The position numbers were made by a program, and so were the translations under genes. Shown here in pieces: positions 14,140-58,363 of a stretch of DNA of 64,000 nt. The notes beneath the pieces were generated by a model that had not been told where the DNA came from, ran no database searches, and saw only the letters and a program-made list of their open reading frames with translations. How positions within the stretch are numbered: the first letter of the stretch is position 1; the number at the start of each line of letters is the position of its first letter. Location of the stretch: the NCBI GenBank assembly GCA_951406725.2, contig OX597814.1, positions 78,864,001 to 78,928,000 on the forward strand, read 5' to 3'. The stretch comes from Octopus vulgaris (taxonomy: Eukaryota).

Positions 14140-14379
14140 TATGTATGCATGTATTCAAGCATTAAGTATCAGTATGTATGCATGTAAGGTGTTTCAGTAT
14201 TCATTGAAATGTAGTGGGCTCATGGAAATAGTATAGAGCATCAAATTCAATGCTCAACAACATTTAATTCTCTGTGAACCTTTCTTAAGAATATAAATGG
14301 TACTGGAATATGAAGCATGGCTGTATGGTTAGGAAGTTTGCTTCACAACTACTTGGTTTCAGGTTCATCTCACAACATG

Positions 14380-14737
14380 TTACCCAAAATTACAGCTCCC
14401 AAAATTACTGCAGAGCTTAATGACCACCTCAAGAACCCAGTTTCCACAAAAAACATTTATCTGGCCACCACAGTCCCCAGGTCTCAATATTATTGAGCAT
14501 TTATGGTGCATTTTAGTAAAGCAAGTAAGGAGTCAATATCCTCCACCATCATCACTACAAGAACTGGAGACCGTTTTAGCTGAAGAATGGACAAAATTCC
14601 TTTGGAAACAATTCAAACTTTGTACGAGTCCATATCTTGTAGAATTCAAGCTGTAATTACTGCCAAAGGCAGTCCTACCCCATATTAAAATAAATGTGTT
14701 TGAAATTTTAAGGTGTTTCCATTATTTTGTCCAATCC

Positions 14738-23712: not shown

Positions 23713-24189
23713 GCACATAAAAAGTACCATCTGAATGTGGTCGATGCCAGTGTCGCCTAACTGGTTCTCTTGACAGCGGCACATAAAAAGCACTCATTAC
23801 ACTCTCGGAGTGGTTGGCATTAGGAAAGGCATCTAGCTTTAGAAATCTTGCCAGATCAGACTGGAGCCTGGTGCAGCCTACTGGCTGACAGTTTTCAGTC
23901 AAACTGTCCCATAACAGTATGGAAAATGGATGTTAAACGATGATGATGATGATGATAAATTCTTTTATTCTTTTACTTGTTTCAGTCAGTTGACTGTAGG
24001 CATGCTGGAGCACCACCTTGAAGGGTTTTAGTCAAACAAATTGACTCCAGGACTTTTTTTCTCAAAGCCTAGTGCTTATTGTATCAGTCTCTTTTGCCGA
24101 ACTGCTAAGTTTCAGGGGACGTAAACACACCAACACCGGTTGTCAAGCAGTGTGGGAGGAGAAACACAGACACAAAGACACACATAAAT

Positions 24190-24249
<60 letters not shown>

Positions 24250-24272
24250 GTAGTTAAATCTATGTCCGGTCA

Positions 24273-24336
24273 TAGAGTGACCAATGGTTTCGCATCCACA
24301 AAGGGCTTCACCCCATGGACGTCTCGTCAAACTCTA
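24273..24336 (-). ncRNA. Type I hammerhead ribozyme motif (C3U core variant) in a ~135-bp insert in (TA)n
   Basis: Minus strand: UAGAGU-UUGACGA-[G A CGUCCAU GGGGUGAAGCCCUUU GUGGAUG C]-GAAAC-CAUUG-GUC^-ACUCUA. Stem I is 6 bp perfect, stem II is paired, stem III is a near-palindrome (ACC AUU GGU). Confidence 0.75.
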
Positions 24337-25656
24337 AAGTGGAACACAAATGTAACTCTTCACCCCTGGGAGGCAGGAATCCATTATATATATATATATA
24401 TACAAACATACATACATATATCACCATCATTGTTTAATGTCTGTCTTCCATGCTGCTAGCATGCGTGCCAGCTTCTTTCAGTTTCCATCTACCAAATCCA
24501 TTCACAAGGCTTTGGCTGGTCTGAGGTGATAGTAGTAGACACTCGCTAAGGTGCCACACAGTGGGACTGAACCATGGGGTTGGGAAGCAAGCTTCTTACC
24601 ACACAGTCATGCCTATGCCTATAAATCTCCTGTGCTGTCATGACCAGGATATGAACCTGGGTTGCCACATATATATGTATATATATATATAGGATTGTGT
24701 GTGTATTTTTGTGTTGTGTTTGTTCCCTACCATGGCTTGACAACCAATGTCCAATGTTGGTTTTTTAAGTGCCTAATTTCTAGATAAACATGTAAGCCTG
24801 AAGTTTGAACTCAGACAACTTATTTCTTATATAGGATTTTAATATTTCAAACACATTTTTAAACAGTTTCCAAGAAACTTCATAAGATGTTGAATTTGGC
24901 CTATAAAAAATATGTATCAGTTGAACATTGGGGTCAATGTAATTGAGTTACCTCTCTCATCAAAATGCTGACCTTGTATCAATATTCTTATTCCATATGA
25001 AGCAATATTCTTATTCCCTATGAAGAATCATATATGTGACAACCAAATGGCTGGTTGTTCCTGTCTTGTTACTAGCACTGTACAGTGTCTGTCTATGGGC
25101 CAGTTATTTAACTCTCAATATTCCATTCTACATAGTTGTAAATAAGTCTCATTTGAATTGGTAATCAGTTAAAAACTTAGGAAAATTTACTAATGCTTCA
25201 TTGGTTTGTTATGGAAACTCAACTTTTACTATGGGTTTGGATAAAAGTAATAGAGACCTTACTTGTCTGAAGCATGATTTAATAATGATTACCACCCATT
25301 AACCAATTTTTTTTATACAGAAAAGTAAAGTAATTAACTGAATTGTCTGACAACAGGCAAATTATCTGAGGAATTTATTCACTGTGTTACAATTCTGTAA
25401 TTCTTAAGACTAGCACAGCAGATAAAAGCACTGGAATTTCAGAGAAATAGCACATACACAACAATATACATCTATAACTTCAATAACAATTTAGCTTCAT
25501 TTACACAGCTAATAACTTCAAGAAAGATATGAATATTATAATGTTCAGCTTACTCTTATTATAAAAAAATCTCTGGCAGCATGCTCACATAATAAACACT
25601 TATCATAATTTGAAAAAATAAAACAGCCATTGTATGGTATATATTAAGAGATAAGG

Positions 25657-45683: not shown

Positions 45684-46252
45684 TTTGGAGATGATGTACA
45701 GGTATTATATATTAGAAGAAATAAGGTACTCAGAAATCTGGAATATTTCCAGAAATATTTCCAGATTTTTATTAATAAAAATCTATAAATATAAAACCAT
45801 CCAGATTTCTGAGTACCTTATTTCTTCTAATATATAATACCTGTACATCATCTCCAAACCTTCTAATATATATATTTATGTCTCCACACTATCCATTTGT
45901 AATAACAAAATATGAACTCCTATCAGAATCTACATACCATGGACAAGAAGCATTTTTACCCATTTTACACAGCATTTTCCTTGGATGATGAAACTGCAAC
46001 TGTAATATCCTACATATATTTTTATTGTTATTTTTATTCTCTTATTTCCTTTTATACTTCTTACACCCATCCTTTTCCAAAATAACTCCTTATATTGAAC
46101 TCTACTATTTCCCTCTAGTTAACTCTCTCATATCGTCTGTGATGAAGGGATATCCCAATATCTCAGAAACAGCTGTAAGACTACCTTTCTATTTATGTCC
46201 TATAAATTCCACACAGCCTTGGCTTTGTTGTCTCATTTTATTTATATATATT

Positions 46253-46289: not shown

Positions 46290-46985
46290 CAAAGTATGGG
46301 GGTTTGGTTCATAAGTGATCTAAACGATTATGTACACTAACTAGGTAAGTGGTGTAATGGATTACTGGGGGTCCAAGGTCATAGCTAAGATGGTAGTTAT
46401 GGAAGCATTGCAGATTTCTGATGCAGTGGATATGTAATCGTTAAACAGGACAGCAAACATTAAGGCAAGGCAAACATCTCAAGTCATATACAATATTATT
46501 ATAGGAAGAAATTCAAAATCTTATGTCTGTTTCTGGGATAGCCCCGAGTATGGGATATTCTGTCATCAGAGACAAATAGGGAAAATGAGAATGGTATATA
46601 TTAATAAGATGATGATATAGAAGAAGGGAGTAAAAGAATAAAAGAAGAAAAAAGAAGCATAAAAGTTCATAGATCAACTTCCCAAAGTTATAGCAATCAG
46701 AGCATGAGCCATTAGATGCAATCCTGTAATAATATATCCTATGAACTTTTGTGCTTTGTTTTTCTTATTTCTTTGCATCTCCTTATTCTTTTACTCCCTT
46801 CCTCTATGGTCTTATCTTATTAATATATACCATTCTTATTTTTCATATTTGTCTCTGATGACGGAATATCCCATACTCAGGGATATTTCAGAAACAGCTG
46901 TAAGATTTTGAATTTCCTCCTATAATAATATTGTAAACGACTTGAGATGTTTGCCTTGCTTTAATGTTTGCTGTGCTGTTTAACA

Positions 46986-55329: not shown

Positions 55330-56460
55330 TTCAGAAGTTCATCCGCCCTTTGACAGGTCTCATTTTTCATCCCACAGGGTGTCCAACAACACCCTCCTTG
55401 CCAAGCAAGCCTGGTGGGGTTTAGTCACCAACGACCTGACCATGGGACAGGTTGTACTGGATTACATCTTACCAGCAGCACTCAAGAGCTTCTTGGGCCA
55501 ATAAGTGGGGGTAGTGCAGTGCAGGCTAAACCCACTGAAAATTATTCATCTGCACAGGTACTTCCTGTACTCCAAATCTTAGTAAAATCATTCAATTGGT
55601 TGGTTGGCAGAAACCTAAAAATGCACTTGTAACTTACTCTAAAATGTCTCAAACAGATTCAGTAAATGGCAAAAAAGGCTTGGGAATGTCAGGGGAACAG
55701 GTCTGGCTCGGCAGGTGTCCCAGTGTATCACAGGCTGAACCCGGTCATCATCCTGCCACTGTGGTCAAACATTCTTCAAGAAAAAGTAAAAATAAACATC
55801 CTTTGAATTTTGGTTGTTTGAATGTGCACACACTTCTTGATGATAATTTTAACAAGAGTCCAGAAAGGTGTACTGCACTTATTGCAGGTGAGTTCAAGAA
55901 ATATTCCCTTTATATAGTTGAGCTCTCTGAAACTTGTTTCTCTGGTAAAGGTCAAGTAAATGAACCTACTTATGGACATACTGTCTTTTGGAGAGGCCTA
56001 CCTAAGGGTCAGCGTAGAGAATCTGGTGCTCGGTTTGCTCTCAAGAATACATTAGTATCCTCCATTGCAGGGCTTCCAAGTGGTATATCTGAATGGATCA
56101 TGTCATGCTGCATTAAACTGACAAAAGGTAGGTTTCTTACTGTTGTCAGTATTTATGCACCAACAATGTCCCATTCTGATGAAACTGTAGGACAGTTTTA
56201 TGATGATCTAGCACAATTATTGAGGAAAGTACCAATTTCTGACAAGCTGGTCATATTGGGAGATTTCAATGCAAGAGTTGGAAAGGACTGTTTCATGGCT
56301 TCTTTTAGGTTGACATGAGATTGGAAAATGTAATAAAAATTGAGTAGCTCTATTGACATTTCATACTGAGAATAATCTGGTTGTCACCAACACTCTGTTT
56401 AAGCAGAAAAATAAATATAAAACCACCTGGATGCACCTAAGATCTAAGCACTGGCAACTC
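55330..56460 (+). mobile_element. RTE-clade LINE 5' portion: 5' UTR plus apurinic-endonuclease domain pseudogene
   Basis: ORF 55596-56318: GCLNVHTLLD...RCTALIAGEFKKYSLYIVELSET...SIYAPT...FYDDL...VILGDFNARVGKD, continuing after a frameshift as NNLVVTNTLFKQKNKYKTTWMHLRSKHW. Confidence 0.92.
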
Positions 56461-56624: not shown

Positions 56625-56990
56625 GAATTTTAAATAGGAGTGGATCTGTTGACTAATCTAGGCTGTTTATTTGTAAGTTTCTGCATCATTTGGTCCAGTT
56701 GGCCGCAGTATACTTTGGCCGTGATTGAAGAGCCAGGTTTAATGAAATCGTAATGGATCATACCTGTGCCAGACCACCAAACACACACCATCAGCTTCTT
56801 TTGATGAATTTTGCTTTTCGGACTGTTTTGGTGGCTTGTCTTTGTCCAACCATTGTGCTGAATGCTTACAGTTGTTGTAACCCACTTATCCAACTTGTTC
56901 AATTTACCAAATTGAACTAGGTGAGTCAATATTGTTTGCTTGCTAATTATACACAAACTGACCCTTTTCTGAACACAGCTGTAATTGTTC
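56625..56990 (-). mobile_element. Mariner (DD34D) transposase fragment, internally deleted
   Basis: ORF 56630-56992: TILTHLVQFGKLNKLDKWV...KIHQKKLMVCVWWSGTGMIHYDFIKPGSSITAKVYCGQLDQM..KL..KQPRLVNR. Confidence 0.88.
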
Positions 56991-58363
56991 AAGGGGTAGT
57001 AACTCTGTTCACAGAATGGCTGTCTTTTGTATCAGGTTTTTTTTTTTTTGTGCCCCCAAACTAAGATTGTAGTTTTGCTTCTATTAATAAAGAAGCTAGG
57101 TGCTTCTGGTCAGCAGGTCTGATGAGTTATCTATATTGCCAAGTGCAATTGTAGACATGAAACCAATGGAAACGTTCTGACCAACCATAACCAAGGACTC
57201 AACTACTTAATGTATATACATATAGCTGATTTCTTTCTTGTGCAACTTCGGTTTTTGTAAAACATGTATTGATGTGCTGCATTTCATTTTTTCATGCACT
57301 AATTTTATTTTTCAAATAAACTGTAGCTCAGTTGGCATATTATGATTTGGACAGAATGGAGATTTGTTTTTTATATCAAAATAACTTGATAAAAAAAGTT
57401 ATAATTAATAAAAAAATATAATAGAATAAAAGACCACGAATTGTGTTGCTTAATAATTAATGGTAATAAAAATTGCACTTCATAGCCTCAGTGATATATG
57501 AGATATAAAACAAGATAATCAATCAATCAAGCAAACCAACTGTCAAAAACAGAGGCACCTACTGTGTTTTTTTATGTTTGGATATGTTATACAGAGGGAA
57601 TGATAGACAATAGGTTCATTCTGATTTCATTGTATTACAAAACAAAAGGATGGGAAAATAAGAGAGCAGAGATTCCATTCATTTAGTTACTTTGTCTCTT
57701 TCAAACTTTAACTTGGAAACAAATGAAAAAAATAATTAAAAAATGAAAATTCCTATCCAATATGAAGAGAAGGAGATTATTTGTTTAATATTTTTTCTTC
57801 TTTATTTTGATTAATGGCCAATAGAATCAGCTGCATTGCTGCTATAAAATAGCTCTTCAAAACTCTTTTCAAGTCATAAATCTTAAACCTAATATCCCTA
57901 CCTACATCATTGTTTTAATATATGGTAATAACTGAAAAGCTACTTCATGTACAAGACAAAAACAAAACTAAAGAAAAAGAAAAGATAGCTTCTAGTCATT
58001 CCACCTGCAAACTATTACATACATATATACATGTGGGCATGTGTGTACTAAGATTACTTTCCATAACATATATATGTAAAATATATATGTATTTGATACA
58101 TACATATATATATATATATGCATGTGTGTATACATATATATATATATAGGTATGTGTATAAATGCATACATACACACACATATATATATATCTATATAAT
58201 TATAATGTATTATATATCTATATATTTAATGTAAAAGAGACAGGGAGTAGGAAAGAGGGAAGAAGGCAGAGTACGAAAAGAGGAATGTAAATAGTTTATC
58301 ATAAGTAAATGTATATCACATTTTCACTCCCTTCTCTCACTTAGCTCCCCACCTTTTCTCTCA

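What the first reader, a model, noticed from the sequence alone, without database searches (positions are those of the whole stretch)
24250..24385. ~135-bp CpG-rich mini-element that is little more than a hammerhead ribozyme, on the minus strand
Seen: an insert inside the (TA)n of a SINE A copy. The minus strand folds into a complete type I hammerhead (24336 to 24273): 6-bp stem I, UUGACGA, G-C-closed long stem II, GAAAC, near-palindromic stem III, GUC cleavage triplet. It is unrelated in sequence to the other hammerhead families here. The C3U change replaces the C3-G8 tertiary pair with U.G, which is expected to slow cleavage. Inference: it lies on the strand of the putative host intron, so attenuation may have allowed it to persist.
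Basis: partly seen in the sequence, partly recalled or inferred. Interest (0 to 1): 0.72.

Follow-up and report, generated by a model that had tools for sequence, protein, structure and literature searches.

The report
Decayed Penelope retroelement hammerhead tail
This short insert is the broken-off tail of a Penelope-type jumping gene, one of hundreds of ageing copies in this genome, and the odd letter in its self-cutting RNA motif is likely ordinary decay rather than a tuned-down ribozyme.

Summary
The minus-strand type I hammerhead is real and placed as described, with U at position 3. It is not a stand-alone mini-element. The genome holds at least 104 copies by a strict pattern, and 1,068 candidates by DNA search. 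Copies share the 3' end and stop at scattered 5' points. Long ones run into a reverse transcriptase plus GIY-YIG gene with the motifs of Hydra-clade Penelope-like elements. The family majority is C3. U3 occurs in 10 of 99 other copies, the same rate as C-to-T at a control stem C (5 of 55), and in all five sequence clusters. So C3U is most likely recurrent neutral decay. The lone copy is predicted to fold poorly as a monomer with C3 or U3. No host exon was found, so the intron-attenuation idea has no support. This scan has already reported hammerheads as Penelope/Hydra ends on other DNA. One side finding: the parent family's endonuclease has 129-157 residues between its GIY and YIG tyrosines, against 10-24 in 70 of 71 scored homologues. 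Verdict: an ordinary decayed copy of an apparently undescribed family in a known clade.

The parts
24241..24387 (-). 5'-truncated 3' end (pseudo-LTR piece) of a Hydra-type Penelope-like retrotransposon; both edges merge with (TA)n
   Evidence: Copies share this 3' end and extend 5' by variable lengths into the RT-EN gene; 9 family bases run on into the left (TA)n and 1-2 bases match at the 5' junction
24273..24336 (-). Type I hammerhead ribozyme motif
   Evidence: Sequence, descriptor scan and shuffles, family alignment
24331..24336 (-). Stem I, 5' strand (UAGAGU)
   Evidence: Pair probabilities 0.94-0.98 for five pairs and 0.49 for the core-proximal pair
24324..24330 (-). Core box UUGACGA; position 3 (24330) is U where the family has C
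   Evidence: C in 39 of 46 other copies and in 85 of 100 listed pattern matches
24292..24323 (-). Stem II: G10.1-C11.1 closing pair, one bulged base at 24322, then an 11-bp helix
   Evidence: Pairs hold in 73-97% of 77 copies; the bulged base is the most variable site of the motif
24280..24291 (-). GAAA box and near-palindromic stem III (ACCAUUGGU): 3 bp as a monomer, 8 bp in a swapped dimer
   Evidence: Monomer pair probability 0.01-0.03; dimer energetics
24273..24279 (-). C17 (24279), predicted cut between 24279 and 24278, and stem I 3' strand ACUCUA
   Evidence: Sequence; cleavage untested
24342..24357 (-). Arm of a predicted stem I extension that pairs with 24252-24267
   Evidence: Predicted for this copy and for the family majority; 83-85% of cells paired, no excess covariation
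23956..24240 (+). Left half of the host SINE and its (CA)n/(TA)n tract
   Evidence: 72-81% identical to other window copies
24388..24625 (+). Right (TA)n, a ~50-bp unrelated fragment, and the right half of the host SINE (24469-24625)
   Evidence: sequence

Best explanation
This insert is the 5'-truncated 3' end of a Hydra-type Penelope-like retrotransposon sitting in the TA tract of a SINE, and its C3U change is likely one of several neutral mutations gained after insertion. Shown: the family links this 3' end to an RT plus C-terminal GIY-YIG gene; copies are 5'-truncated, often paired with an inverted copy, and mostly end either close behind the ribozyme or about 50-66 nt further on; the family has C3. 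Inferred: the element's endonuclease nicked AT-rich DNA, and reverse transcription began at the nearer of two internal start sites and stopped after about 145 nt. Inferred: in the source elements the hammerhead cut weakly, as a dimer or with protein help. Inferred: this lone copy is now inert DNA and needs no attenuation to persist.
For: Family: 1,068 candidates, 45 matches listed at 81-100% identity; 104 strict pattern matches against 0 for the reversed control. Extents measured from the 3' end range from 96 to 1,362 nt in 47 copies. One locus (L034) carries an RWQ motif, DKT, the RT4 motif, CxCX5C, the YIG half of the endonuclease and this hammerhead in order. Seven inverted pairs lie within 2.5 kb. 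3' ends: 27 short, 13 long, 6 intermediate of 46, as for the PLE tail (PMC8557442 passages; PMC11167929 passages). Decay: copies average 12% from the majority and this one 7%, with 9 differences in 136 nt; 10 of 46 keep all 12 core bases. C3-to-T is 4 of 45 against 85 of 804 at non-CpG C (P = 1.0), and 10 of 99 against 5 of 55 at a stem I C (Fisher P = 1.0). U3 falls in all five clusters (4/29, 2/17, 2/5, 1/9, 2/17). U3 carriers share 1.0 derived changes per pair against 1.36 for all pairs, and 0 of 5 have the compensating A8. The active monomer fold is about 0.2% of the ensemble for both C3 and U3, and a swapped dimer is about 10 kcal/mol better than two active monomers.
Against: No RT tree with reference PLE clades was built, so clade placement rests on motifs and on 60% identity over 120 RT residues to in-genome Hydra-1_Obim-like copies. 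No intact full-length copy of this family was found among those fetched, so the gene is read from several broken copies. Non-CpG core sites are mutated less than non-core sites (26/444 against 401/3532). I read this as subfamily variation plus search bias, but weak selection on some copies is not excluded. Stem covariation does not exceed shuffles, so the fold is supported only by retained pairing and by comparison across families. The predicted active dimer is still 1.4-4 kcal/mol above the best co-fold. Expression and host-gene context are unknown.
Confidence: 0.88

Rival explanations
1. One reading: the copy lies sense in a host intron, an active ribozyme there would cut pre-mRNA, and C3U was selected or was needed for the insertion to survive.
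For: U3 hits a core base that pairs with G8 (PMC3884650 passages); C3G and G8C single mutants abolish a PLE hammerhead (PMC11167929 passage). Xenopus retrozymes are under-represented in introns (bioRxiv 10.64898/2026.07.22.740005, passages). C3U is this copy's only core lesion, and its four other CpGs survive.
Against: U3 frequency equals the neutral rate genome-wide. The C3 monomer is predicted to be no better folded. A metazoan PLE minimal hammerhead showed no detectable monomer cleavage in vitro (PMC4209133, parts 1-2 of 4 read), and another needed protein (PMC11167929 passage). No second family copy lies in the 64 kb. No host exon was found: 181 peptide scans gave only transposon domains at E <= 0.001.
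Confidence: 0.05
2. The 136-mer is a non-autonomous ribozyme mini-element (retrozyme or SINE-like) with its own fixed ends, copied as a unit.
For: Many copies are short: 11 of 47 measure 123-145 nt. The unit is predicted to fold back on itself through an extended stem I.
Against: 5' ends form a continuum up to 1.36 kb with no shared boundary; the search query itself favours this length. No short direct tandem was seen: pairs within 2.5 kb are 7 inverted and 1 same-strand pair 2.4 kb apart. The upstream sequence is the RT-EN gene.
Confidence: 0.04
3. A U3 subfamily amplified with an altered core, like the U3-A8 variant in Schistosoma PLEs.
For: 11 of 100 listed matches have U3; natural U3-A8 PLE hammerheads exist (PMC4209133).
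Against: U3 copies are spread over all five clusters, share no excess derived changes, and lack A8.
Confidence: 0.03

Closest known systems
Hydra clade of endonuclease-bearing Penelope-like elements, especially Hydra-1_Obim of Octopus bimaculoides (Craig et al. 2021, PMC8557442; sections 11-12, passages, supplement parts 2 and 52 read)
   Same: RT followed by C-terminal GIY-YIG; DKT, RWx, CxCX5C, CxxC and CxH motifs; TA targeting; type I hammerhead in the 3' end with an ACCA-N-UGGU stem III; 5' truncation, inverted 5' copies and a tail.
   Different: A separate family. Stems I and II are unrelated to those listed for Hydra-1_Obim (compared by eye). Copies whose hammerhead matches that listing almost letter for letter exist separately in this genome (L089, L095/L105) and are about 60% identical in RT. 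The GIY-to-YIG spacer is 129-157 aa against 27 aa. The long tail is about 50-66 nt past the motif's end against the 30-40 bp quoted for other PLEs.
PLE hammerheads of metazoans (Cervera and de la Pena 2014, PMC4209133; parts 1-2 of 4 read)
   Same: Type I, long stem II with G10.1-C11.1, short palindromic stem III suited to dimers, mostly found as single motifs from truncated PLEs.
   Different: 6-bp stem I with a predicted long extension, and the bulge falls after the closing pair. This copy has an uncompensated U3-G8 where the Schistosoma variant has U3-A8.
Poseidon PAc element of Anolis (Frangieh et al. 2024, PMC11167929; passages read)
   Same: Two classes of 3' end; AT-rich targets; hammerhead in the pLTR.
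   Different: Different clade. Its finding that hammerhead cleavage is protein-assisted and dispensable for insertion in vitro is carried over here by analogy only.
Metazoan non-LTR retrozymes (PMC7229834, search listing only; bioRxiv 10.64898/2026.07.22.740005, passages)
   Same: Type I hammerhead, PLE-related.
   Different: Retrozymes are non-coding tandem units. This is a single truncated end of a coding element.

Membership tests
Hydra-clade PLE | RT followed by a C-terminal GIY-YIG endonuclease | tested here: met
   Order RT, linker, EN, hammerhead in L034, L037, L048; Pfam gave no hit on four fragments, so the call rests on tblastn to the intact in-genome element and on motifs
Hydra-clade PLE | CxCX5C linker motif | tested here: met
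   CSCRVYNDC and variants in L031, L036, L037, L040, L053, L066
Hydra-clade PLE | DKT in place of DKG | tested here: met
   FSDKTKN in L034; one copy only
Hydra-clade PLE | RWK motif | tested here: inconclusive
   MRWQA in the one decayed copy read there (L034), aligned to MRWKA of the intact in-genome Hydra element
Hydra-clade PLE | No CCHH in the EN; CxxC and CxH beside the conserved E and N | tested here: met
   CKLC..E and LN...CIH in L022, L030, L036; no shared cysteine pair seen between the GIY and YIG motifs (by eye)
Hydra-clade PLE | Insertion into (TA)n | tested here: met
   This copy and many others end in TA or related microsatellites; not counted against a background
Hydra-clade PLE | Canonical hammerhead in the 3' repeat | tested here: met
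   Family majority CUGACGA...GAAA...GUC; C3 lies 155-209 nt after the gene's stop in 3 of 5 long copies checked
Hydra-clade PLE | RT phylogeny within Hydra; absence of IFD and Naiad CxC domain | not tested
   No reference PLE set was available in the script box; identity only
PLE insertion structure | 5' truncation, inverted 5' copy, optional tail | tested here: met
Type I hammerhead ribozyme | Three stems around the core, open at stem I, NUH site | tested here: met
Type I hammerhead ribozyme | C3-G8 (or compensated) core pair | tested here: not met
   This copy has U3-G8; the family majority meets it
Type I hammerhead ribozyme | Stem covariation among homologues | tested here: inconclusive
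   86% of cells paired against 33-42% for slid controls, but no measure exceeds shuffles
Type I hammerhead ribozyme | Self-cleavage | not testable with these tools
   Needs an in vitro assay
Non-LTR retrozyme | Non-coding unit of fixed length in direct tandem arrays | tested here: not met
   Variable 5' ends into a coding gene; no short direct tandems among 47 copies

The most novel reading that the evidence does not exclude
The parent element spread to hundreds of copies using a GIY-YIG endonuclease split by a 110-140-residue Ser/Thr/Asn/Asp-rich insert between its GIY and YIG strands, the longest such spacer among the homologues I scored. This would make it a Penelope-like element whose nuclease core stays active with a large, probably disordered loop. 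The alternative is that the insert disabled the enzyme and a sister Hydra family moved the element in trans.
Probability: 0.45. Interest if true: 0.35.

Novelty: new member of a known kind. Interest (0 to 1): 0.16.

Why it matters
For the finding as posed, little. It is one decayed copy among hundreds, and it shows that a single core change in a genomic hammerhead should be compared with the family's neutral rate before selection is invoked. The family is still useful. Old, dispersed, and with a countable core, it allows a clean test of whether sense-intronic hammerheads are purged or disabled once a gene annotation is at hand. The long insert in its endonuclease is a small structural curiosity for people who study how Penelope-like elements move.

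Tried and rejected
Rfam, whole window and local, and on five family copies: no hammerhead model matched.

Covariation: 46-copy alignment, covariation score 0.150 against 0.153 for shuffles; 77 ungapped stem II copies, no pair with P below 0.125. Apparent compensations between clusters, such as U-A, C-G and U-G at one pair, were not significant.

Host gene: splice-site scan; Pfam on 11, 20 and 150 open stretches (the filter listed 296 and not all were scanned); PDB on 2; ESM Atlas on 1; protein database on 2. Nothing but transposon domains. This does not exclude a long intron or small exons.

Expression: no RNA holder listed. Summed contig depths are far above single-copy depth over the 3' end but are not copy numbers.

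U3 subfamily and fixed-length mini-element: rejected.

Papers on C3-G8 exchanges and on dimeric PLE hammerheads were not held; a search for C3U with G8A found none.

Dropped rows: overlapping loci and one segmental duplicate (L032 of L031) before the 46-copy counts; 4 of 104 matches were not listed; 80 of the 100 listed were fetched, and 77 copies with a 32-nt stem II entered; 79 of 150 homologues lacked a scorable motif pair.

Full report
Observation. A descriptor scan of both strands finds this motif and one other hammerhead, on the plus strand at 46855. Thirty shuffled windows gave 0-2 loose hits each and one hit in all with stem I of 6 bp or more. The strand folds at z = -2.36. Rfam does not recognise it or five relatives. 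The insert splits a SINE whose halves are 6-50 nt apart in six of seven other window pairs. A contig from a public run matches 24279-24376 exactly, so U3 is real sequence, though that run may be the assembly's source.

It is the end of a larger element. The genome is 2.8 Gb in 227 contigs. A DNA search gave 1,068 candidates and 45 listed matches at 81-100% identity. A strict two-box pattern gave 104 matches against 0 for the reversed control. Copies share the 3' end and reach 96 to 1,362 nt upstream of it with no common 5' boundary (47 copies). Seven head-to-head inverted pairs lie within 2.5 kb. Of 46 copies, 27 end within 20 nt of the motif's end, 13 carry 50-66 nt more, and 6 fall between. 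This copy has the short end: 9 family bases run into the left (TA)n, and 1-2 bases match at the 5' junction. Truncation, inverted 5' copies and an optional tail are the described signature of Penelope-like elements (PMC8557442, passages). In an Anolis element the tail is the distance between two internal RT start sites (PMC11167929, passages).

Which element. [quoted passage not shown] Locus L034 carries RWQ, DKT, the MGAYDS RT motif, CxCX5C, the YIG half and this hammerhead in order; other copies show CKLC..E and LN...CIH. These are the features given for the Hydra clade (PMC8557442 section 11). The supplement lists one mollusc member, Hydra-1_Obim, with the same ACCA-N-UGGU stem III but different stems I and II (compared by eye). 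Copies matching that listed hammerhead occur separately in this genome and are 60% identical to this family over 120 RT residues. So the genome is octopus-like by inference, and this is a sister family. A third, young Hydra family with intact 717-residue frames is also present. I built no tree, and Pfam had no hit on four fragments.

The C3U change. The family majority is C3 (39 of 46). After dropping a segmental duplicate, C3-to-T is 4 of 45 against 85 of 804 at other non-CpG cytosines (P = 1.0). Genome-wide, the pattern with position 3 left open shows T in 11 of 100 listed matches, this copy included. The control with a stem I cytosine left open shows T in 5 of 55 (tallied by eye; Fisher P = 1.0). 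U3 appears in all five stem II clusters. The five U3 carriers in the first sample share fewer derived changes than average pairs, and none has A8. Copies average 12% from the majority, this one 7%, and only 10 of 46 keep all 12 core bases. Against my reading, non-CpG core sites are hit less often than non-core sites (5.9% against 11.4%). Subfamily variation in stem II and search bias can explain that, but I did not separate them.

Structure and likely activity. Pairing is kept in 86% of cells against 33-42% for slid controls, but nothing exceeds the shuffle control. The larger stem II set agrees. That is what neutral decay from a few source elements would give. The hammerhead fold is about 0.2% of the predicted monomer ensemble for both C3 and U3, because the 3-bp stem III loses to a fold that pairs the core with the cleavage site. 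A strand-swapped dimer gains about 10 kcal/mol over two active monomers but stays 1.4-4 kcal/mol above the best co-fold (tertiary contacts are not modelled). Published PLE hammerheads behave this way: no detectable monomer cleavage and weak dimer cleavage in one case (PMC4209133), and protein-assisted cleavage dispensable for insertion in another (PMC11167929). No second family copy lies in the window. That U3-G8 slows cleavage is recalled; the papers were not held.

Host intron. I found no exon on either strand by splice scan, Pfam, PDB, Atlas or protein search. The strand of any host transcript is therefore unknown, and the attenuation idea rests on an unverified premise.

Side finding. In this family the tyrosines of the GIY and YIG motifs are 131 and 155 residues apart in two stop-free copies, and 129 and 157 apart in two in-frame copies with stops. 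In 8 of 11 further measurements the spacer is 344-471 nt; the other three are 777-1,197 nt, and some of these loci repeat those. The young in-genome family has 18 residues and the Hydra-1_Obim-like copies 27. Among 150 homologues returned, 71 could be scored: 70 have 10-24 and one has 77; the top hit carries the same kind of insert but ends before the YIG motif. One paper search (listings plus the Craig et al. text) and two look-ups of earlier findings showed no description of it. Craig et al. mention large insertions only for Terminon endonucleases. Most of that paper's supplement (2 of 59 parts read, plus search passages) and the bioRxiv supplements were not seen. Whether the split enzyme worked in cis is untested.

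Earlier notes. I had reached the Hydra reading before seeing them. Other reports from this scan describe hammerheads here and in similar genomes as ends of Penelope/Hydra elements. None matched this sequence or window.

Verdict. Real motif, ordinary origin: a decayed end of an apparently undescribed family in a known clade. Interest 0.16.

Noticed in passing
L066:1516-2250 (-), L036:1489-2067 (-): The parent family's GIY-YIG has 129-157 residues between the two motif tyrosines, filled by a Ser/Thr/Asn/Asp-rich insert that is stop-free in two copies; homologues have 10-24, one has 77.
   Followed up: partly
L101:2385-4535 (-), L102: A young Hydra family with intact 717-residue frames and partial tandems. 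Its 3' end reads, by eye, as a hammerhead with a CCGAAGA core (U4C) that my CUGA/UUGA scan missed.
   Followed up: partly
L089, L095/L105, L086/L104: Decayed copies of a Hydra-1_Obim-like family; the hammerheads of L089 and L095/L105 nearly match the published listing.
   Followed up: partly
window 46851-46907 (+): A second type I hammerhead with an intact CUGAUGA core, 10-bp stem II and palindromic stem III, from an unrelated family.
   Followed up: no
window 24419-24470: A ~50-bp fragment between the right (TA)n and the SINE's right half that looks, by eye, like the end of another common repeat; so the same microsatellite may have taken two insertions.
   Followed up: no
window 55539-56315 (+), 56633-57031 (-), 14333-14653 (+): Remnants of a LINE-type endonuclease and of mariner/Tc1-type transposases (Pfam PF03372, PF01359, PF13358).
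   Followed up: no
L024/L025 (L031/L032): Two near-identical copies about 204 kb apart on one contig, with identical flanks: a recent segmental duplication or an assembly duplicate.
   Followed up: no
window 45689-45855: A long, near-perfect inverted repeat (picked up as a sub-threshold MIR7994 match), probably a MITE-like element.
   Followed up: no
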